Shown piece after piece: positions 1-9,461 of a stretch of DNA of 10,880 nucleotides. Numbering within the stretch: the stretch's first letter is position 1; the number at the start of each line of letters is the position of its first letter. Below the pieces are notes generated by a model that did no database searches, was not told the DNA's origin, and saw only the letters and a program-made list of their open reading frames with translations. This DNA is from an uncultured Bdellovibrio sp. (lineage in GTDB: Bacteria > Bdellovibrionota > Bdellovibrionia > Bdellovibrionales > Bdellovibrionaceae). Location: positions 1 through 10,880 of the forward strand of contig CAZMVK010000095.1 in the NCBI GenBank assembly GCA_964569545.1, given 5' to 3'. The position numbers and the translations under genes were made by a program.

Positions 1-1849
1 TTACTTTGTCTTCGTTTTGCTTTTTCTCTTTGTTAATTTGGTCTTTAATTTTTTGCAATTGTGAATCTACTTGCGATTTAAGATTATTGAGTTGTTTTTC
101 AATTTCGGCTCTGTTTTTGCCGACTTCATCGTTTATGCTTTTTTGTAGTTTTGCTCGAGCTTCGTCAATTTTCTTTTGTATTTGCTTTCCAAAACCTTTC
201 TGAAGTTCTGGTCCGAAGTTAGAGCTTAGGTCAAGTTTAACATTTTGTGGAAGTTCGCCGGCGGCATTGGCTTCGATATTTAAATTTGGAAGTCCGTTGA
301 ATACGGATATTAAAATTTCTTTAAGAATAGGTTCTTTTGCGGAAATTTCATATTTTGCATTTTGTATAATATTTTTGCTTTGTAAATTAAGCTGCTTTAG
401 TCCAATCAGATTTCCTTGTGAATTGATTGAGGCATTAGCGTTTGTGAAGGAAATGCTGGCATCCTCGCTCTGAAGTAGGTCTTTTGAATCAATAGCGTAG
501 CTGCCAATTTTGAAGTCGTAATGAATTTTGCTTTCATTTTGAGTGTTGTCGAGTGAAAACATTGTTTCTAGATTGGAAATTTTCTGAGCCGGGAAGTCTC
601 CTTGGATATTCATTACTGTAGGTTTTTTTGTTAGCTTTTGATTAGATGTAATATCTGTAATTCCACCTTTGATGTTTCCGTAATTAGAGTTGTTTGTTGT
701 TGATTTTGAGCTAATCAAAATCTTTTTTAGCCAGAACATTGGTAAACTGTTGTTATGTCCAAACTCGTATGAGATCCCTTTGGAGCGTGGGTGTGGTTTA
801 ATGGTCTCGTCATCTGTTGACGTGTTATCTTTTTTAAGAAGTTTTGGTGGTAAATATTTTTCAGCTAGTCCGCGATAGTAATTGGCTTTGTTGATATAAG
901 GATTGAGATATGAGCGCAAAATGCTTTCTGTTATGCTTTTGGCATCAAGCTTTGGTAAATGTAGACGTTGCTCTAAGTTTTTAATGTCACTTTTGATGGA
1001 TTGATCAATTTCTTTTAGTTGAGTGTCTAGAAATTTAATATCTTCGTTGAATTCGCCATCTGCCCCTTGAACTTTTTTAAATTTCTCATCTATTTCTTTT
1101 ACGATTTTGTCGGCTTCGCTAAGTGTTTGTTGTAATTCTTGCGGTGATTTAAAATCTTTTGTTTTTAGTTTGGATATGCGATCGTTGATGCCTTGTATTT
1201 CTTGTTGGTTGGGAAGTGATTTTAATTTGTCGTCCCATTTTTTTTGTTTATCTTTGATCGTTATGTTTAAGGCATCAATTTTTTTCTTTGATTCTAGATT
1301 GTCTTGAATTTTTCCCAACTGATCTTGATTGTTTGATTGTGATAAAAATGCGGCAATATCGCCAATTGCATTTTCTTTGTTTTTATTTTCAATAGTTTGT
1401 AGCGCCTTGTCTTTAGCTTCGTTAATTACTTTTGATGTTTGTCCATCGTCTGCTTTGGGCGGCTCTGGTGGTTTGACTTTTCCTTTGGTTTTTCTCAAAG
1501 TATTGATGCCGATTTGTTCAACTGCAATTTCATCAATGATCAGGCGTGCTCGTAATAGACCATTCCATGGGATTGAAAATCGAATTTCTCCAATTTCGAC
1601 AGCGTTGTGCTGAGGATTTTCAGAGTCTGTGAGTTCGAGTTTTTTAAGTTGAAAAGAGCCGTCGAAAAAACTGGTTTTTATTTGCTCGATATTGAGTTCG
1701 ACACCAAGAGCTTGGTAGCCGCCGAATTCTATTGCTTTTTTAAGGTGAAGGTCGAAAAGGAAGTGGAAATAGCAGTAAGTAATAACCATGATGATGAAGA
1801 ATGGTACGACTGCTTCTGTGCGAATTGGACCTTTAATTTTTTTACTCAT
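1..1849 (-). CDS. Large membrane-anchored protein: one N-terminal TM helix, an AsmA/TamB-like beta-rich region, then a long Lys/Glu/Gln-rich coiled coil. Possibly a TIGR03545-family member. Start codon is in the window; the 3' end runs off the left edge (at least 616 codons).
   Basis: Hand translation of the minus strand from ATG (revcomp of 1847-1849) gives MSKKIKGPIRTEAVVPFFIIMVITYCYFHFLFDLHLKKAIEFGGYQALGVELNIEQ... with no stop through position 2. A GGAG Shine-Dalgarno sits 5 nt upstream (revcomp ctctGGAGttcacATG). All plus-strand ORFs in 1-1867 are short, F/L/S/C-rich antisense artefacts. The six-frame track omits this ORF, presumably because it is edge-truncated. Confidence 0.75.
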   Translation of the reverse strand, partial: MSKKIKGPIRTEAVVPFFIIMVITYCYFHFLFDLHLKKAIEFGGYQALGVELNIEQIKTSFFDGSFQLKKLELTDSENPQHNAVEIGEIRFSIPWNGLLRARLIIDEIAVEQIGINTLRKTKGKVKPPEPPKADDGQTSKVINEAKDKALQTIENKNKENAIGDIAAFLSQSNNQDQLGKIQDNLESKKKIDALNITIKDKQKKWDDKLKSLPNQQEIQGINDRISKLKTKDFKSPQELQQTLSEADKIVKEIDEKFKKVQGADGEFNEDIKFLDTQLKEIDQSIKSDIKNLEQRLHLPKLDAKSITESILRSYLNPYINKANYYRGLAEKYLPPKLLKKDNTSTDDETIKPHPRSKGISYEFGHNNSLPMFWLKKILISSKSTTNNSNYGNIKGGITDITSNQKLTKKPTVMNIQGDFPAQKISNLETMFSLDNTQNESKIHYDFKIGSYAIDSKDLLQSEDASISFTNANASINSQGNLIGLKQLNLQSKNIIQNAKYEISAKEPILKEILISVFNGLPNLNIEANAAGELPQNVKLDLSSNFGPELQKGFGKQIQKKIDEARAKLQKSINDEVGKNRAEIEKQLNNLKSQVDSQLQKIKDQINKEKKQNEDKV

Positions 1850-2799: not shown

Positions 2800-3737
2800 T
2801 CAGTTCAAGTTCAGATTAAGATTAAGATTCTTTTCTTCCCATTTTTTTATTCCGTCAATAAAAGTTTCCATCGGCGTTCTTCCGTTGCACATTTTTCCTT
2901 GATGAGTCCTCCTTTCATTATACTCCTGCATCCAGATATCTAAATCTGCTTGTAATTCTTCGATGGATTTGAATATCTTTTTTCTAAATGCAATTTGATA
3001 AAACTCATTTAAAATTGTTTTATGGAAACGTTCGCAGATTCCATTCGTTTGTGGATGACGTACTTTTGTTTTTGTATGTTCAATATCATTTACGCCAATA
3101 AATAATTGATATTCATGTTGATCGACCTTGCCGCAGTAATCGGTGTTTTTTGATTGTATAATTTTGCAAATGCAACTTTTGAATAAGTGTCCACAAATGT
3201 CTGCTGATAAATACGGCCAACACTCTTTAATGTGCCCACATAAAACGTATCTTGTGAGCCCAGATAGCCTGGGTGGGCTGTTTCTGTTTTTCCGTGAGCT
3301 ACGTCATCATCTTGCTTGCGCTCAAGTGCTGACAGCTGTGCTTCGGTAAATACGAGGCCAAGTTCGGCACTACGCTTTTCTAAAACTGTTAATCTTTTTT
3401 GAAATGACTCAAGATCATGACGTTGCCAAATACAATGAACTCCTGCGGGTGATACAAAAATACCAATTTTGCACAGTTCATTTGATGCTCTTTTCTGACC
3501 GAATGCTGGATTGTCATGAGACATCTTAACAACTTCATTTTCAATCTTTTCATCAATACGATTTTTTAGATTTAGTTTCCGCCGTGACACTTCGTAGAGT
3601 GCATCGACGCCACCCTCATCTGTTAATTCTTTGTAACGATAAAATGTATCCCTTGAATAACCCATGATTTTACAGGCTTTAGATACATTTTGAATCTCAG
3701 CGGCTAAACTTAATAGTCCAACCTTGTTTGATATGAT
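2800..3737 (-). pseudogene. IS481-family DDE transposase, disrupted: no canonical start, -1 frameshift at an A6 run, probable internal deletion between catalytic D1 and D2
   Basis: Frame A (3665->3090) reads MGYSRDTFYRYKELTDEGGVDAL...HPGYLGSQDTFYVGTLKSVGRIYQQTFVDTYSKVAFAKLYNQKTPITAARS... Its in-frame upstream extension, KIISNKVGLLSLAAEIQNVSKACKI (HTH-like), has no ATG before a TAA at 3741-3743. The -1 frame continues ...NTDYCGKVDQHEYQLFIGVNDIEHTKTKVRHPQTNGICERFHKTILNEFYQ...RTHQGK...EEKNLNLNLNLN, with the stop at 2800-2802. The frames switch at the coding-strand A6 run (plus-strand T6 at 3146-3151). The D1 (SQDTF) to D2 (NTDY) spacing is only about 37 aa, suggesting about 20 aa deleted. The rve-type DDE core (D...D...35...E, PQTNGxxER) is recognisable. 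Confidence 0.65.
2803..2830 (-). repeat. Hexanucleotide microsatellite (gttcaa/gttcag x2, attaag x2.5) encoding the (LN)4 tail of the transposase
   Basis: Plus strand 2803-2830 gttcaagttcagattaagattaagattc. On the minus strand this is ...aatcttaatcttaatctgaacttgaac = NLNLNLNLN followed by a stop. Confidence 0.6.
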
Positions 3738-3889: not shown

Positions 3890-3946
3890 GCGAACCTCTA
3901 GGTTTTAGTTTACGATTTGACCTTATGCGAAAAAGGAGAATCTGCA

Positions 3947-6013
3947 GTGGATATTATATCGTCGCTTTTGCCATTATTGTTGATTGCCGCAGCTGGCGGT
4001 CTTTGTTTCTTCATCTTCACTCGCTTTTTAGTCAATGTGGGGTCTGATGAAATCGCTATTACAGAAAGACAATTTGTTGGAAGTGAATTGGCACCTGGCA
4101 GGGTTTTCGCTTTAGATAATGAGGTTGGGCTGCGAGCGAGTTTTTTAGCTCCAGGGCTGCACTTTATACCTTGGCCAGTTGTAAAGTTATCGAATAAGCC
4201 AAAGTTTTTGAATATTGATGCCGACGAACTTGGAATTATCGAAGCTACCGATGGAGTTTCTCTTCCGTCAGGACGAATTTTTGCCGATGATCCAGCTGGC
4301 GGAAAGCATGATAACTTTCAAAATCCTGTTGAGTTTTTAAGAAGTGGTGGAATTCGAGGAAAGCAGCTTCGCTTTTTAACGAATGGAACTTTTAAAATTC
4401 ATCCTGATCTGTTTCGGGTTACGAAAATTAAAAAAACAACAATTCCTGAGGGAAAAATAGGAGTAGTTACCGCAGCTGATGGAGCCCCACTTGGTGGTCA
4501 TTTGCTTTCTAAAAGCATCGAAGGTCATGACAACTTTCAAAAAGCTGAAATATTCCTGCAAAATGGTGGTGAAAAAGGCCCTCAAATAGATTTTTTACGA
4601 CCTGGTGTTTATAACATCAACACTGAGGTCTTTAATGTAGCGATACATAATGCTATTCAAATCAGTGAAAATGAAATTGGTGTTGTCGATGCTCGCGATG
4701 GTTTGCCAATGAATCGTGATGAAGTTGTCGTCCATACTCCAGACAACCATCAGTATTTTCAAAATGGTCAGCTGTTTTTAGATAGTGGTGGCAAGCGAGG
4801 TCCTCAGGAGAGCATTTTAACACCAGGAACCTACTATATTAATCCCTATTTATTTTCAGTTTCAAAACGAAAGCAAACTATTGTTGCTCAAGGTGAAGTT
4901 GCCGTATTGATCTCGAATGTTGGCAAGGGTCCTGAGGAGTTTATTCCAAACGAAGCTGAAACAGCTGCAGAGCAAGATAAACATAAAGCAAGACATGTTG
5001 TCCCTAAGGGATACAGAGGAATTCAGCGAGAAGTTTTAGGTCCAGGAGCTTACAATATCAATCCCTTAGCTTACACTGTTATCATTATGCCAACGATTAC
5101 TCGTTCTGTCGATTGGAGTGCTGAGGCGGTGAGAAGCAATCCCGAGGGAAGCTTCGACCCGTTTCAAGTTGTTTCTTATGATGGTTTTCCTATGCAAGTT
5201 GAAGTTCGTTGCCAGTATCGGGTGCTTCCAGAAAATGCTCCCTATGTTGTGCAGAAAATTGGATCGATTGATGAACTAGAGAGTAATGCAATTCATCCAC
5301 AAATTGATGGTATATTTAGGGCCCAGGTGTCTCGTTCTCCTGCAATTTCCTACCAACAAAATCGTGCCGAAGAACAAAAAGCTGCTGAGGAAGCTGTTCG
5401 CATGGATCTAGCGAAATATCGAGTTGAAGTCGTGTCGGTTATGATTACCAACATCCATTTGCCCGAAGCTCTTATGAAGACGACACAACAAAAGAATTTA
5501 GCTGAACAAGAAAAGTCTATGTACGATGCTAAAAAAGATGCCGAGCAACGACGGATTGAGTTTGAAAAAACTCGGGCAGAAGCTGACATGCAAGTCGATA
5601 TTATTAAAGCTGAATCAGGAATCAAAGTGGCTCAACATGAGGCTAGGCAAATGGAAGAGCGAGCTAGAGGAGATGCTTCTCGTGTTCGCATGAGTGCAGA
5701 AGCTGAAGCCACACGAACAAAACAAATAGGTGATGCTGAAGCTGGTGTTGTTCAATCCAAAGGGGAAGCACAAGCCAAAGCATACCGTGACCAAGTTGCT
5801 GCTTTAACTGCACAAGGGGTCACTACTGTTGAAGTTGTTAAAGCAATTTCGGCGGCAGGATTAAAAATCACTCCTGATATTCAGATTTCTGGATCTGGCT
5901 CTCAGTCAGGAGATAGTTCGAACGGTTTAGTCCAAGTTCTACTTGCGCAATTTATTCAACAGCAAAAAAATAGACCTGACGAATCCAACAAGCAAGTTCT
6001 ACCTACTTCGTAA
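3947..6013 (+). CDS. Flotillin-like SPFH (band 7) family membrane protein (YqiK/FloT-type) with an expanded, internally repeated N-terminal region
   Basis: AAGGAG (3933-3938) lies 8 nt before GTG 3947. The six-frame track begins at TTG 3917, but the GTG start yields M-DIISSLLPLLLIAAAGGLCFFIF, a typical flotillin N-terminal TM. The SPFH core includes ...PGLHFIPWPVV... and ...VEVRCQYRVLPENAPYVVQKIGSIDELESNAIHPQIDGIFRAQVS... The C-terminal Ala/Glu/Gln-rich flotillin coiled coil includes EQRRIEFEKTRAEADMQVDIIKAESGIKVAQHEARQMEERARGDAS...AEAGVVQSKGEAQAKAYRDQVAALTAQGVTTVEVVKAISAAG. About 330 aa are inserted between SPFH strand 1 and the rest of the domain. Confidence 0.85.
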   Translation: MDIISSLLPLLLIAAAGGLCFFIFTRFLVNVGSDEIAITERQFVGSELAPGRVFALDNEVGLRASFLAPGLHFIPWPVVKLSNKPKFLNIDADELGIIEATDGVSLPSGRIFADDPAGGKHDNFQNPVEFLRSGGIRGKQLRFLTNGTFKIHPDLFRVTKIKKTTIPEGKIGVVTAADGAPLGGHLLSKSIEGHDNFQKAEIFLQNGGEKGPQIDFLRPGVYNINTEVFNVAIHNAIQISENEIGVVDARDGLPMNRDEVVVHTPDNHQYFQNGQLFLDSGGKRGPQESILTPGTYYINPYLFSVSKRKQTIVAQGEVAVLISNVGKGPEEFIPNEAETAAEQDKHKARHVVPKGYRGIQREVLGPGAYNINPLAYTVIIMPTITRSVDWSAEAVRSNPEGSFDPFQVVSYDGFPMQVEVRCQYRVLPENAPYVVQKIGSIDELESNAIHPQIDGIFRAQVSRSPAISYQQNRAEEQKAAEEAVRMDLAKYRVEVVSVMITNIHLPEALMKTTQQKNLAEQEKSMYDAKKDAEQRRIEFEKTRAEADMQVDIIKAESGIKVAQHEARQMEERARGDASRVRMSAEAEATRTKQIGDAEAGVVQSKGEAQAKAYRDQVAALTAQGVTTVEVVKAISAAGLKITPDIQISGSGSQSGDSSNGLVQVLLAQFIQQQKNRPDESNKQVLPTS
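4217..5117 (+). repeat. Four tandem degenerate protein-level repeats (about 73-80 aa, about 220 bp each) inside the flotillin CDS; a fifth, shorter founder copy lies at about 4049-4216
   Basis: Aligned units: ELGIIEATDGVSLP...GKHDNFQNPVEFLRSGGIRGKQLRFLTNGTFKIHPDLF; IPEGKIGVVTAADGAPL...GHDNFQKAEIFLQNGGEKGPQIDFLRPGVYNINTEVF; ISENEIGVVDARDGLPM...DNHQYFQNGQLFLDSGGKRGPQESILTPGTYYINPYLF; IVAQGEVAVLISNVGKGP...GYRGIQREVLGPGAYNINPLAY. Each resembles the canonical SPFH N-terminal hairpin (EIAITERQFVG...LAPGLHFIPWPVV). Confidence 0.6.
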
Positions 6014-6282: not shown

Positions 6283-7413
6283 ATGAAATCATTGACTGGA
6301 ATTTTAGTATCGTCTGGTGAAAATCAAAACAGACAACAGGTTGATCTTGCATTTCACGGTTGCAACCTAAATATCTCAGCTGATATTTCGAATCTTTTGT
6401 TGTTGAGTTTGCCTATTTCAAGTCTTGATTTCCATCTAGGTGGTAGTAATTTGTTGTTTATTACCTCAAATAGCTTGGGGGAAAATACGCTTTATGTCGA
6501 AGCCTCTGCTGAAAACTTTAGACAACTTGAGGCGGCTGCTGAAATTGGTAAAAAACTGGCTGCGATAAAAAAACAGAGAAAAATATCAGCCTTGCAAACG
6601 ACAGTTTGGTTATCACTTGCAATTGGGATATTTGCAGGCTTGGTCCTATTCAGAGGGCCCATATTTGGTGGGCTTGGAACTCTTTTTCCGTTTTCATGGG
6701 AAAAGAAAATTGCCGATGAAGTATTCAACCCCAAATTGACCCGCGAACAAATGGAACTGACGCAGAAACTTGCAGAGCTAGTTGCTTATTTAAAAATGGA
6801 TGAAAAAAGTTGGCCAGAAAAATTTGTTGTGCATATTTCTTCTGACAAAGAACTCAATGCCTATGCCACTCTTGGCGGGCATTTATTTATCACTCGAGGC
6901 CTCATCGAAGAGCTTGATCGACCAGAGCAATTGTTGGGTGTTTTAGCCCATGAAATGGTTCATGTGCAAAAACGACATGTTGTTCGTTTGGTCTTTCAAG
7001 GTCTGGGTTTATTTACCGTCTTCCAGCTGATTCTTGGTGATGTCTCGGGCCTGGTCGCAATTGCGGTTGACCAAGGCGGTCCTTTGTTTAATTTGCAATA
7101 TTCTAGGACTTTAGAAGCTGAAGCTGATCAACTGGGGATCCGGCTATTGATACAAAATCAAATCGACCCCCGTGGCCTTCCGGAAAGTCTGAAACTAATG
7201 TCTGATCACCAAAAGACTATTTTAAAACAAACCCCAGGTGGTGAGACGCTTGAAAAAATTGGGGACATTGAGTTTATTAGCTCTCATCCCGAGTTGGAAA
7301 AGCGAATTCACAGTTTACAACAAATCACTGAAATCGGCGCGGCAGAGATGAAGATTAAAAAGATAGAATTTGATTATGTGAATTTTAAACAAAGGGTAAA
7401 GGAGGTTTTTTAA
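6283..7413 (+). CDS. M48-family zinc metallopeptidase (HtpX/Oma1-like membrane protease) with an N-terminal extension of about 100 aa and one TM segment
   Basis: HExxH zinc motif LAHEMVHVQKRH (nt about 6949-6963) and a downstream EAEAD motif (LEAEADQLGIRLL), typical of peptidase M48. Hydrophobic segment ALQTTVWLSLAIGIFAGLVLFRGPIFGGLGTLFPF. Weak RBS at ATG 6283. The stop (7411-7413) lies 2 nt before the next gene. Confidence 0.8.
   Translation: MKSLTGILVSSGENQNRQQVDLAFHGCNLNISADISNLLLLSLPISSLDFHLGGSNLLFITSNSLGENTLYVEASAENFRQLEAAAEIGKKLAAIKKQRKISALQTTVWLSLAIGIFAGLVLFRGPIFGGLGTLFPFSWEKKIADEVFNPKLTREQMELTQKLAELVAYLKMDEKSWPEKFVVHISSDKELNAYATLGGHLFITRGLIEELDRPEQLLGVLAHEMVHVQKRHVVRLVFQGLGLFTVFQLILGDVSGLVAIAVDQGGPLFNLQYSRTLEAEADQLGIRLLIQNQIDPRGLPESLKLMSDHQKTILKQTPGGETLEKIGDIEFISSHPELEKRIHSLQQITEIGAAEMKIKKIEFDYVNFKQRVKEVF
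7399..7405 (+). promoter_or_regulatory. Strong Shine-Dalgarno (AAGGAGG) for the first AIM24 paralog, embedded in the 3' end of the M48 gene (translational coupling)
   Basis: The sequence gggtaAAGGAGGttttttaattATGg places the SD 10 nt upstream of ATG 7416. Confidence 0.7.
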
Positions 7414-7415
7414 TT

Positions 7416-8096
7416 ATGGAAAAACCAATTTCAAAGGTCGAATGCATTGGATCCTCATCATTTGGGATGCTGAAAGCTTCTATTGCTCCAAATCACGTTT
7501 TAGTGGTGGAACCCGGAGCGATGGCCAGCCAAGACGTCGGGATTGAATGTGTGATTGATGTGAACGGAGGAATTTTATCCGCTATTATGGCAAAATTTTT
7601 TGGCAAAGAGAGCTTCTTTATCAGTTACTATAAAAACAACTCTCAAGCCCCTCAAGAAATTTATTTTACACAGGCAACCCCTGGGCAAATTGTTGAGAAA
7701 GAATTAAAAAATGAACGAATTTATCTTGAGCCCGGGTCATTTATTGCTCGCGTCCCGCAAGTTCAAAGCAAAGTCGTTTGGGCTGGTTTTGCTAGTTTCT
7801 TTGCCGGCGAGGGTTTGTTTCGTTTGTGTTTTCAAGGTTCTGGTAAAATTTGGTATGGGGCTTATGGTGCCGTTATTGAAAAGGAAATCGTCGGAGACTA
7901 TATCGTTGACTCGGGCCATTTGCTATCCTACCCGCCTACCATCCATTTATCAATCCGACTGTCAGGCGGTATTTTTTCCAGTATTTTTTCCGGTGAAGGA
8001 TTTGTTCTGAAACTATCTGGCTCGGGTAAAATTCAATTGCAAACGCGCAACGTAAAGGGGTTAGCTCAATGGCTAAACCCAAGGTTTTGGGGGTAA
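7416..8096 (+). CDS. AIM24/TIGR00266 (DUF124) family protein, paralog 1
   Basis: 226-aa ORF with the family's characteristic glycine-rich repeats ...FFAGEGLFRLCFQGSGKIWYGAYGAVIEKEIVGDYIVDSGHLLSY...FSGEGFVLKLSGSGKIQLQTRN. Confidence 0.85.
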   Translation: MEKPISKVECIGSSSFGMLKASIAPNHVLVVEPGAMASQDVGIECVIDVNGGILSAIMAKFFGKESFFISYYKNNSQAPQEIYFTQATPGQIVEKELKNERIYLEPGSFIARVPQVQSKVVWAGFASFFAGEGLFRLCFQGSGKIWYGAYGAVIEKEIVGDYIVDSGHLLSYPPTIHLSIRLSGGIFSSIFSGEGFVLKLSGSGKIQLQTRNVKGLAQWLNPRFWG

Positions 8097-8098
8097 TC

Positions 8099-8776
8099 AT
8101 GGACATTGAAATTAAATATGCACCTTCTGGGACCGCGGCCATTTGCAAGCTTAATCCTGGCGAAGTTTTGGTTGCCGAGAGCGGTGCTTTGATGGCGCTA
8201 AAAGGAAAAGTTCAATTTGAAACCACCACTCGTCAGCGAACAGGTGGCGGAGTCATAGCGGGGGTAAAGCGACTAGTCAGTGGCGAATCTTTTTTCATCA
8301 ATAAATTCACTGCCAAAGAAGACTGCCAAGTATGGCTTGGCACAGCTCTGCCAGGCGATATCTCTGTTCATGAGTTGAGAGGAGAAAAATTCATTATTCA
8401 AGGCGGCAGTTATATTGCCTGTGAAGAAACGGTTCACATAGATTTAGAGTGGCAAGGATTGAAAACTTTATTTTCAGGTGAAAGCCTTTTCTGGGTAAAA
8501 GCTAAAGGCCACGGCAAAGTGTTGATTGGAAGTTTTGGATTTATCTATCCTATCCAAGTCAAGGGCGAATACCTGGTCGACACTAGTCACATCGTTGCCT
8601 TTGAGGAAACTCTTGATTTTGAAATTTCAAAAAACAATCGATCTTGGCTCGGAGCTTTGCTTGGTGGTGAAGGTTTTGTTTGCCGCTTTCGCGGCAATGG
8701 AACAGTTTGGTGTCAAAGCCACAATCCAAAGGCCTTTGGCTATACCTTGCGACCTTATTTGAAGAAAAAAACTTAG
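8099..8776 (+). CDS. AIM24/TIGR00266 (DUF124) family protein, paralog 2
   Basis: Start chosen at ATG 8099 (MDIEIKYAPSG...), 2 nt after the upstream stop, because its N-terminus aligns with paralog 3 (MMSFKIEHKPEF...). The track's alternative ATG at 8069 would overlap paralog 1. Motifs ...FSGESLFWVKAKGHGKVLIGSFG...YLVDTSHIVAFEE...LLGGEGFVCRFRGNGTVWCQS. Confidence 0.8.
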   Translation: MDIEIKYAPSGTAAICKLNPGEVLVAESGALMALKGKVQFETTTRQRTGGGVIAGVKRLVSGESFFINKFTAKEDCQVWLGTALPGDISVHELRGEKFIIQGGSYIACEETVHIDLEWQGLKTLFSGESLFWVKAKGHGKVLIGSFGFIYPIQVKGEYLVDTSHIVAFEETLDFEISKNNRSWLGALLGGEGFVCRFRGNGTVWCQSHNPKAFGYTLRPYLKKKT

Positions 8777-8792
8777 CAACCCGGAGCTTAAA

Positions 8793-9461
8793 ATGATGTC
8801 ATTTAAAATTGAACATAAACCAGAATTTGCTTGGTTGTCAGTTGTCGTGCCTGCCAAAAAAAAGCTTTTTGTCGAGGCCTCCGCGATGGCCGCAATGTCG
8901 ACAAATATGTCCATGCGGGCCTTATTTAAAGGAGGCCTAAAGCGTTTTTTATCCAAAGAAAATTTATTTATTTCAGAATTTACCGCTGATCGAATTGATG
9001 GCGAAGTTTGTATTGCCCCCGGTCCGAATGGAGATATCGGACATTTTTTATTAAACGGAGAAGTAGTTTATTTGGCTTCTACCAGTTTTGTCGCCCACAC
9101 CGAAGGCGTCTCTTATGAAACAAAATTTCAAAAATTGTCCCAAGGTCTTCTGGGGGGAGCTGGATGGTTTTTAATTAAAATGACTGGAACCGGAGATGTT
9201 TGGTTTAATTCATACGGAGCTCTGGTTGAGCTGGATGTCACCGATGACTTAGTCGTCGACAACGGACACATCGTGGCCTTTACCGAAGGGGTTCAGTATG
9301 ACATTACACGTATTGGTGGGTACAAATCTCTGCTCTTTTCTGGCGAAGGCTTTGTCTGTCGGTTTCGTGGTAACGGTAAGGTCTATATCCAAACCAAAAA
9401 ACCAGCGGCACTCATTTCCTGGGCCTCTCGATTCCGAATTGTCAAAAGATCAAGTAACTAA
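8793..9461 (+). CDS. AIM24/TIGR00266 (DUF124) family protein, paralog 3
   Basis: 222-aa ORF with GGAG 6 nt upstream of the ATG. Motifs ...LLGGAGWFLIKMTGTGDVWFNSYG...LVVDNGHIVAFTEG...LFSGEGFVCRFRGNGKVYIQT. GEGFVCRFRGNG is identical to paralog 2. Confidence 0.85.
   Translation: MMSFKIEHKPEFAWLSVVVPAKKKLFVEASAMAAMSTNMSMRALFKGGLKRFLSKENLFISEFTADRIDGEVCIAPGPNGDIGHFLLNGEVVYLASTSFVAHTEGVSYETKFQKLSQGLLGGAGWFLIKMTGTGDVWFNSYGALVELDVTDDLVVDNGHIVAFTEGVQYDITRIGGYKSLLFSGEGFVCRFRGNGKVYIQTKKPAALISWASRFRIVKRSSN

What the first reader, a model, noticed from the sequence alone, without database searches (positions are those of the whole stretch)
4049..5117. Flotillin with a 4-5x tandemly amplified SPFH N-terminal hairpin module (about 330-aa insertion)
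In canonical flotillins the SPFH domain follows the TM helix directly. Here strand 1 of the domain (ITERQFVG...LAPGLHFIPWPVV) is followed by four further copies of the same motif (xIGVVxAxDGxPL ... DNFQxxxxFLxxGGxxGxQxxxLxPGxYxINPxLF), each about 75 aa, before the domain resumes (FQVVSYDGFPMQVEVRCQYRV...). The repeat units are diverged (about 30-40% identity), so this is an old, maintained architecture rather than a recent duplication or assembly artefact. It would create a greatly extended membrane-proximal region of unknown role: oligomer spacing, cargo binding, or a ruler.
Basis: seen in the sequence. Interest (0 to 1): 0.62.

Follow-up and report, generated by a model that had tools for sequence, protein, structure and literature searches.

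The report
Membrane-anchored vault-like SPFH protein
This bacterial membrane protein belongs to the stomatin/flotillin (SPFH) family but carries five tandem copies of the small beta-sheet module that normally occurs once, which gives it the same layout as the major vault protein of eukaryotes while it stays tethered to the membrane.

Summary
The gene (window 3947-6013, +, 688 aa) encodes an N-terminal transmembrane helix, five tandem beta modules (R0-R4, about 74 aa each), an SPFH alpha/beta core, a 130-residue helix and a conserved C-terminal tail. R1-R3 are clearly related to each other (35-42% identity, z above 20). R4 is at once a repeat unit and the start of the Pfam Band_7 match. R0 is supported mainly by predicted structure. 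There is no repeat at DNA level, so this is not an assembly artefact.

The architecture is old and common. More than 3,000 close homologues exist. A profile of one unit finds 1,296 protein clusters with 2-15 copies, always N-terminal to the SPFH core.

It is not an MVP orthologue: no Pfam Vault match, and it has a membrane anchor. It is not a FloT/YqiK-type flotillin either.

The likely function is a tall oligomeric cage on the cytoplasmic face of the inner membrane. That part is inferred.

The parts
3933..3938 (+). Shine-Dalgarno-like AAGGAG, 8 nt upstream of the GTG start
   Evidence: Read from the sequence. The 688-aa product from GTG 3947 is identical in length and sequence to database protein P0001.
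3947..6013 (+). Gene for the 688-aa repeat-bearing SPFH protein. The mechanical ORF starts at TTG 3917. The end coordinate includes the stop codon.
   Evidence: Pfam Band_7 E 7e-24.
3950..4027 (+). N-terminal transmembrane helix (residues 2-27 of the 688-aa protein). It has a very short uncharged N tail and a basic residue just after the helix.
   Evidence: Helix 2-27 in both AlphaFold models. Positive-inside count over 109 homologues: 0.13 K/R before the helix and 2.65 K/R in the 18 residues after it.
4028..4210 (+). R0: first SPFH1-like beta module. It carries the canonical PGLHFIPWP motif and lacks the DNFQ/GG insertion. It is probably the module that contacts the membrane.
   Evidence: Strands 28-31, 37-41, 61-67, 70-73, 79-83 and 88-90 at pLDDT above 90. 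Weak sequence similarity to R1 (z 5.1). P69, G70, H72, W76 and P77 are invariant in the family.
4211..4438 (+). R1 repeat unit (76 aa). The most conserved unit in the family (GIRGKQLRFLTNGTFKIHP).
   Evidence: HMM E 2.5e-36; z 21-23 against R2 and R3; alignment.
4439..4657 (+). R2 repeat unit (73 aa)
   Evidence: HMM E 1.3e-35.
4658..4879 (+). R3 repeat unit (74 aa)
   Evidence: HMM E 8.6e-40.
4880..5098 (+). R4: the last unit, with a variable acidic loop in place of the DNFQ segment. Its second half is also the start of the Pfam Band_7 match, so it is the SPFH1 module that abuts the core.
   Evidence: Repeat HMM i-E 2.7e-7 at residues 362-389 of the 698-aa ORF. Band_7 match at 363-544. Same strand pattern as R1-R3.
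5099..5461 (+). SPFH alpha/beta core (the SPFH2 subdomain; equivalent to the 'shoulder' of MVP)
5465..5854 (+). Single long helix of about 130 residues (the coiled-coil or 'cap-helix' region), EA-rich
   Evidence: Helix 507-636. Weak profile match to the C-terminal region of flotillin-2 (E 5e-3). hhalign to the MVP cap helix E 1e-4.
5855..6010 (+). C-terminal tail with the conserved GLKITPDIQV motif and a final short helix. Low model confidence in the monomer.
   Evidence: L639, I641, T642 and P643 are invariant. pLDDT is below 50 at 650-657 and 675-688.

Best explanation
[quoted passage not shown] The small N-terminal beta subdomain (SPFH1), which normally occurs once, is present five times in tandem (R0-R4). 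It is followed by the usual SPFH2 core, a 130-residue helix and a conserved C-terminal tail. This is the domain plan of the major vault protein (SPFH1-like repeats, shoulder, cap helix), but with a transmembrane anchor at the end where two vault halves would meet.

Shown:
- The repeats and their homology to the start of the SPFH domain.
- The MVP-like predicted fold of the repeat array.
- The wide distribution and variable copy number of the unit.

Inferred:
- The bulk of the protein lies in the cytoplasm (positive-inside rule).
- Like every structurally characterised SPFH protein, it assembles side by side into a closed ring. The helices form a tapering roof and the C-terminal tails form a central plug.
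- The stacked repeats act as extra wall storeys that raise the SPFH ring well above the membrane. The result is a tall 'half-vault' that encloses a patch of inner membrane and a large cytoplasmic lumen.
- The number of repeats (2-15 in relatives) sets the wall height.
- R0, which keeps the hydrophobic PGLHFIPWP loop, is the module that sits on the membrane.
- The invariant H/F/Q/GG/R-K/Q residues of R1-R3 probably make lateral contacts between subunits or line the lumen.

What is enclosed or organised is not known. No partner gene is conserved.
For: Repeats:
- establish the repeats statistically.
- R4 is shared by the repeat HMM and Band_7.
- There is no DNA-level repeat.

Distribution:
- More than 3,132 homologues at E <= 1e-5, and the best 120 are 62-100% identical.
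- The single-unit profile finds 1,296 clusters at 50% identity, 701 of them at E <= 1e-10, with 2-15 matched stretches per protein.
- In 91 of 91 proteins with a detectable SPFH core, all units lie N-terminal to it.
- Orthologues of about 750 aa carry one extra unit that is 58-68% identical to its neighbour. In relatives of 1,284-1,802 aa (P0121-P0124) most adjacent units are 40-70% identical (range 30-70%). Both show continuing tandem duplication.

Structure:
- AlphaFold model with a diverse alignment: mean pLDDT 85.5, pTM 0.65, and nearly all 10-residue blocks from 11 to 500 at pLDDT above 90.
- Foldseek against the PDB: the top 11 hits are all MVP (E 1.1e-16 to 4.7e-12), ahead of prohibitin, HflK/C, erlin, stomatin and flotillin. 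MVP R1-R7 alone gives E 1.9e-7 and TM 0.51. The first, weaker model gave the same ranking.

Topology.

Literature:
- MVP R1-R9 are described as homologous to SPFH1 domains, the shoulder as SPFH2 and the cap helix as the coiled-coil domain (PMC12915596).
- The SPFH proteins with solved complex structures named in the papers read (HflK/C, flotillin, erlin, prohibitin, stomatin, MVP) form ring or cage assemblies (PMC12624060, PMC12915596).
Against: - No oligomer was modelled or observed. The cage, its height and its symmetry are extrapolated from other SPFH proteins.
- Sequence-level homology to MVP is not established. No Pfam Vault or MVP_shoulder match appears in 50 members. The repeat profile against MVP finds nothing. 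The full-length hhalign reaches only 57% probability and is driven largely by the coiled coil.
- Topology rests on the positive-inside rule alone.
- R0 is supported mainly by predicted structure.
- Without a conserved neighbour or a known ligand, the biological role remains open.
Confidence: 0.6

Rival explanations
1. It is an ordinary bacterial flotillin (FloT/YqiK type), and the repeats are a flexible spacer or cargo-binding arm with no part in building a cage wall.
For: Sources name homologues YqiK or HflC. There is a weak profile match to the C-terminal region of flotillin-2 (E 5e-3). It has an N-terminal anchor with a cytoplasmic bulk, as in bacterial flotillins.
Against: NCBIfam FloT scores 12.6 bits against a cut-off of 700. 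Pfam Flot matches only 2 of 50 members at E 0.076. No NfeD-type or other conserved neighbour was found. The units are predicted as rigid, stacked domains with pLDDT above 90, and they superpose as a block on MVP R1-R7 (253 residues, 3.6 A); this does not look like a flexible linker. Conservation of the units is very high (63% mean column identity across phyla).
Confidence: 0.15
2. The bulk of the protein is periplasmic, as in HflK/C. The repeats form a stalk that scaffolds a membrane protease such as the adjacent M48 peptidase.
For: An M48 peptidase gene lies 270 bp downstream on the same strand, also on the window's own contig in another assembly. HflK/C-FtsH is a precedent for SPFH-protease pairs (PMC12624060).
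Against: The M48 and AIM24 neighbours are absent next to the gene in the 57 related genome loci, where the stored flank allows it to be seen. They are also absent from the closest relative, which is 95% identical. The positive-inside rule points to a cytoplasmic bulk in 109 homologues. The 1,802-aa relative P0121 has a signal-like segment plus a second hydrophobic segment, which again puts the repeats inside (read from the sequence).
Confidence: 0.12
3. It is a true orthologue of the major vault protein and forms free, closed, two-halved vault particles in bacteria.
For: MVP is the best structural match over the whole length. A few bacterial MVP homologues have been reported (PMC3762200; bioRxiv 10.1101/872010).
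Against: No Pfam Vault or MVP_shoulder match in any of 50 members. No profile similarity between its units and MVP repeats. The N terminus, which in vaults forms the waist contact between the halves, is here a transmembrane helix. Unit length is 74 aa with an extra helix; by my recollection MVP repeats are about 55 aa.
Confidence: 0.05
4. The repeats are an assembly or annotation artefact (collapsed or duplicated reads, or a fused ORF).
For: None found.
Against: No DNA-level repeat. The identical 688-aa protein occurs in independent assemblies. Thousands of homologues have the same layout.
Confidence: 0.01

Closest known systems
Major vault protein (MVP), the shell protein of the eukaryotic vault particle
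   Different: - No detectable sequence similarity of the units to MVP repeats.
- Five modules of about 74 aa with an inserted helix and a DNFQ...GGxRGxQ signature, against nine of about 55 aa in MVP.
- An N-terminal transmembrane helix where MVP has the free N terminus that joins two half-vaults. The vault is noted as the exception among SPFH complexes for having no membrane association (PMC12624060).
- Bacterial rather than eukaryotic.
Membrane SPFH cage proteins: HflK/C, QmcA, flotillin-1/2, prohibitin, erlin, stomatin
   Different: These proteins have one SPFH1 module; this one has five. It does not meet the family-specific models for FloT or HflC. It has no NfeD or protease partner in a conserved operon.
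Reported prokaryotic MVP homologues (Myxococcales, Cytophagales, Oscillatoriales; Asgard and other archaea)
   Same: They are prokaryotic proteins with MVP-type repeat(s) followed by an SPFH/Band 7 domain (PMC3762200, 10.1101/872010, PMC12962969, PMC13607799). One of them, from Herpetosiphon, is annotated simply as a band 7 protein.
   Different: Those were found by sequence similarity to MVP or by reciprocal structural hits. The archaeal ones are described with a single repeat (or five in one Asgard case), and no transmembrane anchor is mentioned for them in the passages I read. The present family has no Vault-domain match. It is far larger (1,296 clusters at 50% identity) and has its own unit signature and 2-15 copies. 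Whether any reported homologue belongs to this superfamily was not tested.

Membership tests
SPFH / Band 7 superfamily | Band_7 (PF01145) domain above the Pfam gathering score | tested here: met
   85.3 bits against a cut-off of 23.6, E 7e-24, residues 363-544 of the 698-aa ORF. All 50 of 50 diverse relatives match.
SPFH / Band 7 superfamily | SPFH alpha/beta fold followed by a long coiled-coil helix | tested here: met
SPFH / Band 7 superfamily | Assembly into a membrane-attached ring or cage | not testable with these tools
   No multimer prediction or experimental data were available.
Bacterial flotillin (FloT/YqiK, SPFH2 subfamily) | Match to the FloT equivalog model or to the Pfam Flot (PF15975) domain | tested here: not met
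   NF058507 FloT scores 12.6 bits against a cut-off of 700. Pfam Flot matches 2 of 50 members at best E 0.076. There is only a weak profile match to the flotillin-2 C terminus (E 5e-3).
Bacterial flotillin (FloT/YqiK, SPFH2 subfamily) | NfeD-family partner gene in the same operon (Hinderhofer et al. 2009, PMC2636767) | tested here: not met
   Clustering of all ORFs within 5 kb in 57 genome loci gave no neighbour family shared by more than 13 loci, and none adjacent to the gene. The window has a transposase fragment upstream and M48 downstream. NfeD was not searched for with its own profile.
Major vault protein family | Sequence match to the Pfam Vault repeat models (PF01505, PF17794-6) and to MVP_shoulder (PF11978) | tested here: not met
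   No such hits for the window protein at E <= 1. None for seven relatives with 6-15 units (837-1,802 aa) at E <= 0.01. None for 50 diverse members at E <= 1. Vertebrate MVPs carry all five models.
Major vault protein family | Profile-level homology of the repeat units or of the whole protein to MVP | tested here: inconclusive
   The unit profile (427 units) against human MVP and against a 17-sequence MVP alignment gives nothing (E 0.14-0.26). The whole-family profile against the MVP alignment is collinear but reaches only 57% probability, E 1e-4. The MVP alignment was shallow (vertebrates only).
Major vault protein family | Fold and domain order: tandem beta repeat domains, then an SPFH-like shoulder, then the cap helix | tested here: met
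Major vault protein family | Soluble protein with a free N terminus that pairs two half-shells; no membrane anchor | tested here: not met
   A hydrophobic helix at residues 2-27 directly precedes the first module. It is conserved in the family alignment.

The most novel reading that the evidence does not exclude
This family and its 2-15-repeat relatives are membrane-tethered bacterial 'half-vaults'. They would be homo-oligomeric SPFH cages whose wall height is set by the number of SPFH1 modules. They would represent the kind of ancestor from which the free eukaryotic vault arose, by loss of the membrane anchor and pairing of two halves at the freed N termini. This would give the vault, whose origin and function are both unresolved, a large, genetically tractable prokaryotic counterpart in cultured Geomonas and cyanobacteria.
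Probability: 0.3. Interest if true: 0.85.

Novelty: new variant of a known kind. Interest (0 to 1): 0.64.

Why it matters
SPFH proteins build cages on membranes in all domains of life. The vault has been treated as the odd one out: it is soluble, it has nine SPFH1-like repeats, and its origin is unclear. In the papers I read, prokaryotic relatives of MVP are described as few.

This analysis points to a large and strongly conserved bacterial superfamily (1,296 clusters at 50% identity). It combines the membrane anchor of classical SPFH proteins with the multiplied SPFH1 array of the vault, and its copy number varies naturally from 2 to 15.

If the proteins assemble as predicted, three things follow:
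- They are a natural series of cages of graded height, useful for testing how SPFH assemblies set their dimensions.
- They are candidates for the missing link between membrane SPFH cages and the vault.
- They offer an experimentally accessible system, because members occur in cultured Geomonas and in filamentous cyanobacteria.

The repeat unit itself has no Pfam or NCBIfam model and could be defined as a new domain family.

Tried and rejected
- Conserved operon partner: tblastn of the window's neighbours (M48, three AIM24, LPG_synthase_TM, DUF2062) against 57 related genome loci found none next to the gene. Clustering of all flanking ORFs gave no widespread neighbour. I therefore drew no functional inference from the M48 and AIM24 genes.
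- Synteny with the closest relative (L001, 95% aa, 87% nt): homology is confined to window 3930-5979.
- Sequence link to MVP: BLAST/phmmer-level, HMM and hhalign tests were negative or inconclusive. A database search with human MVP returned only vertebrate MVPs among the 120 listed, so the MVP profile stayed shallow.
- Pfam on the single units at E <= 10: nothing. The weak CshA_repeat, ATP-synt_ab_Xtn and SHIPPO-rpt hits fall mostly below their gathering scores or have no single stretch that passes on its own. I treated them as noise from beta-rich, PG-rich repeats.
- Defence-system models (PADLOC): no hits.
- Viral contigs: no relatives.
- The first AlphaFold model, made from close homologues only, was poor (pLDDT 62). 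It was replaced by a model from a diverse alignment.
- The promoter/terminator scan gave nothing beyond chance.
- Literature searches for a description of this family found none. The library lacks most subscription journals, so absence is not proof.
Full report
**The gene**

The finding lies inside one ORF, window 3917-6013 on the + strand. A GTG at 3947 is preceded by AAGGAG at 3933-3938. It gives a 688-aa product identical to a database protein (P0001), so I take 3947 as the start. Residue numbers below are for the 688-aa protein unless the 698-aa ORF is named. Pfam finds only Band_7 (SPFH), at residues 363-544 of the 698-aa ORF (E 7e-24). NCBIfam models for FloT and HflC are far below their cut-offs.

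**Checking the observation**

I cut the region into R0 (44-102), R1 (103-178), R2 (179-251), R3 (252-325) and R4 (326-395), in 698-aa numbering. I compared the pieces by Smith-Waterman against 300 shuffles each.
- R1, R2 and R3 are related beyond doubt (z 21-23; 35-42% identity).
- R4 is related to R2 and R3 through its second half (z 7.4 and 9.8).
- R0 is only weakly similar (z 1.1-5.1).

An HMM built from R1-R3 units of the window protein and eight homologues scores R1-R3 at E 1e-35 to 1e-40. It also detects R4 at residues 362-389 (i-E 2.7e-7), although no R4 was used to build it. Band_7 starts at residue 363. The same residues are therefore both the end of a repeat unit and the first strands of the SPFH domain.

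At DNA level there is no tandem repeat. The only in-register match is a 22-nt stretch encoding HDNFQ. The duplication is therefore old, and an assembly artefact is excluded.

**How widespread it is**

- A search of 5.8 billion proteins gave more than 3,132 hits. The best 120 are 620-756 aa long, and most are 69-91% identical to the query over more than 90% of its length (extremes 62% and 100%). Sources label them only 'SPFH domain-containing', 'YqiK' or 'HflC'.
- An alignment of 49 of them has 63% mean column identity.
- Members of about 750 aa carry one additional unit between R0 and R1. It is 58-68% identical to its neighbour, so it is a more recent duplication.
- A profile of the single unit, run against 1.84 billion cluster representatives, found 1,296 proteins at E <= 1e-3, 701 at <= 1e-10 and 163 at <= 1e-30. 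They have 2-15 matched stretches and lengths up to 1,802 aa.
- Among the best 150 plus the window protein, all 91 with a detectable SPFH core have every unit N-terminal to it.
- Seven relatives with 6-15 units (837-1,802 aa) all carry Band_7 after the units. Four of them also have a C-terminal VWA domain.
- In the proteins of 1,284-1,802 aa (P0121-P0124) most adjacent units are 40-70% identical (range 30-70%), which indicates lineage-specific expansions.
- Named relatives come from Geomonas, Microseira wollei and Symploca sp..
- The close family occurs in MAGs labelled Bdellovibrionota/Bacteriovoracaceae, Micavibrio and other Alphaproteobacteria, Planctomycetaceae/Pirellulales, Polyangiales and Obscuribacterales.

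**Structure**

A first AlphaFold model from close homologues was poor overall (pLDDT 62), though good in the repeats. A second model used an alignment with 25-58% identical relatives. It is confident: mean pLDDT 85.5, pTM 0.65, and nearly all 10-residue blocks from 11 to 500 above 90.

The model shows:
- a helix at 2-27;
- a beta module R0;
- four modules with the same pattern (strand, short helix, three to four strands) starting at 94, 170, 243 and 317;
- an alpha/beta core at 386-504;
- one helix from 507 to 636;
- a less confident tail.

**What it is**

Recent structural papers describe MVP R1-R9 as homologous to SPFH1 domains. They describe the shoulder as SPFH2 and the cap helix as the SPFH coiled-coil domain (PMC12915596). 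ECOD-based work finds an 'MVP repeat' in front of SPFH/Band 7 in archaeal proteins (PMC13607799).

The window protein is therefore best described as TM helix + 5 x SPFH1-like module + SPFH2 + coiled-coil helix + C-terminal tail.

It is not an MVP orthologue by sequence:
- No Pfam Vault or MVP_shoulder match in 50 members, nor in the seven relatives with 6-15 units that were scanned.
- The unit profile finds nothing in MVP.
- A whole-length profile comparison is collinear but reaches only 57% probability.
- I recalled the human MVP sequence from memory for these tests. It proved 100% identical to PDB chain 11dr_A.

It also differs in having a membrane anchor. The vault is singled out in the literature as the SPFH complex without membrane association (PMC12624060).

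**Topology and mechanism**

In 109 homologues the N tail before the hydrophobic helix is a few residues long and has almost no K/R (mean 0.13). The 18 residues after the helix carry 2.65 K/R on average, with an almost invariant R/K at the helix end. By the positive-inside rule the repeats, core and helix are cytoplasmic. This is an inference.

The SPFH proteins with solved complex structures named in the papers I read (HflK/C, flotillin, erlin, prohibitin, stomatin, MVP) form closed rings with helical roofs and C-terminal beta barrels (PMC12624060, PMC12915596). I therefore expect this protein to form a homo-oligomeric cage on the inner face of the cytoplasmic membrane. The stacked modules would add wall height between membrane and SPFH ring, and copy number would set that height.

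R0 keeps the hydrophobic PGLHFIPWP loop, with H72, W76 and P77 invariant. That loop resembles the membrane-contacting SPFH1 loops described for erlin and prohibitin (PMC12624060), so R0 probably sits on the membrane. The invariant H, F, Q, F, L, GG, R/K and Q positions shared by R1-R3 are candidates for lateral contacts or a lumenal binding surface. None of this assembly picture was tested here.

**Context**

Downstream lie an M48 peptidase (6283-7413), three tandem AIM24 paralogues (7416-9461) and, on the other strand, an LPG_synthase_TM protein. Upstream lie a truncated transposase (HTH only, 3090-3665, - strand) and a DUF2062 protein.

None of these neighbours is found beside the gene in the 57 related genome loci, and no other neighbour is widely shared. 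Even the closest relative (95% aa, 87% nt) aligns with the window only across 3930-5979. The gene thus behaves as a stand-alone unit, and the M48 and AIM24 genes give no functional clue. There are no relatives in viral contigs and no defence-system match.

**Novelty**

The kind of protein (SPFH with a multiplied SPFH1 array) is known from MVP. A handful of prokaryotic MVP homologues have been reported (PMC3762200, 10.1101/872010, PMC12962969, PMC13607799).

I found no description of the following:
- a large bacterial superfamily with an N-terminal membrane anchor;
- its own 74-aa unit signature (xIGVVxAxDG...HxNFQ...FLxxGGxRGxQ...LxPGxYxINxxLFxV);
- a copy number of 2-15.

The unit is not covered by Pfam or NCBIfam. 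The searched library is incomplete, so prior description elsewhere cannot be excluded. I rate the finding a new variant of a known kind. A specialist in SPFH or vault biology would find it surprising and directly testable. The functional part remains inference.

Noticed in passing
window 7416-9461 (+): Three tandem paralogous AIM24/TIGR00266-type genes (226, 235 and 222 aa; Pfam AIM24 E 2e-46 to 7e-61). The first two overlap by 28 nt. They follow an M48 peptidase gene on the same strand. The function of bacterial AIM24 proteins is unknown.
   Followed up: partly
window 6283-7413 (+): M48 metallopeptidase (HEMVH motif) with an N-terminal extension of about 150 aa and a hydrophobic segment. It lies 270 bp downstream of the SPFH gene, but it is not a conserved neighbour of that gene in 57 related loci.
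   Followed up: yes
window 3090-3665 (-), and window 3930-5979 versus L001 8985-11030: A truncated transposase-like ORF (HTH_29/HTH_32 only, no catalytic domain) sits just upstream of the gene. DNA similarity to the closest relative (87%) stops exactly at the gene borders. The locus has therefore been rearranged, or the gene has moved as a unit.
   Followed up: partly
loci L001-L057; GC values: The protein stays 70-77% identical between MAGs whose loci range from 34% to 70% GC and are labelled as different phyla (Bdellovibrionota, Alphaproteobacteria including Micavibrio, Planctomycetota, Polyangiales, Obscuribacterales). Many of these labels are predatory lineages, as were the bacteria in which MVP homologues were first reported. 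It is unclear whether this reflects strong purifying selection, old lateral transfer or a link to predation.
   Followed up: no
L001 (contig CALQIT020000005.1): The closest genome locus is labelled 'MAG: Streptomyces griseus' but has 45% GC. That does not fit Streptomyces (about 72% GC, from my own knowledge). The bin label is probably wrong.
   Followed up: partly
P0121, P0122, P0123, P0126 (relatives, not in the window): Relatives with 8-15 units (1,331-1,802 aa) end in a von Willebrand factor A domain. One is Symploca sp. NET58509.1, annotated only as a 'VWA domain-containing protein'. A vWA domain also occurs in the vault-associated PARP4 (from my own knowledge). This may be a coincidence.
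   Followed up: no
window 2-1849 (-): A long ORF runs off the left end of the window (at least 616 aa). It has an N-terminal hydrophobic segment and a K/E/Q-rich, coiled-coil-like C-terminal part, and no significant Pfam match.
   Followed up: partly
L004 8529-8822 (-) and 8 other loci: A small ORF of about 97 aa lies about 200 bp upstream of the SPFH gene and is divergently oriented, in 9 of the related loci. From the look of its N-terminal sequence (not tested) it could be a ribbon-helix-helix protein. It is absent from the window and could be a local regulator in some lineages.
   Followed up: no
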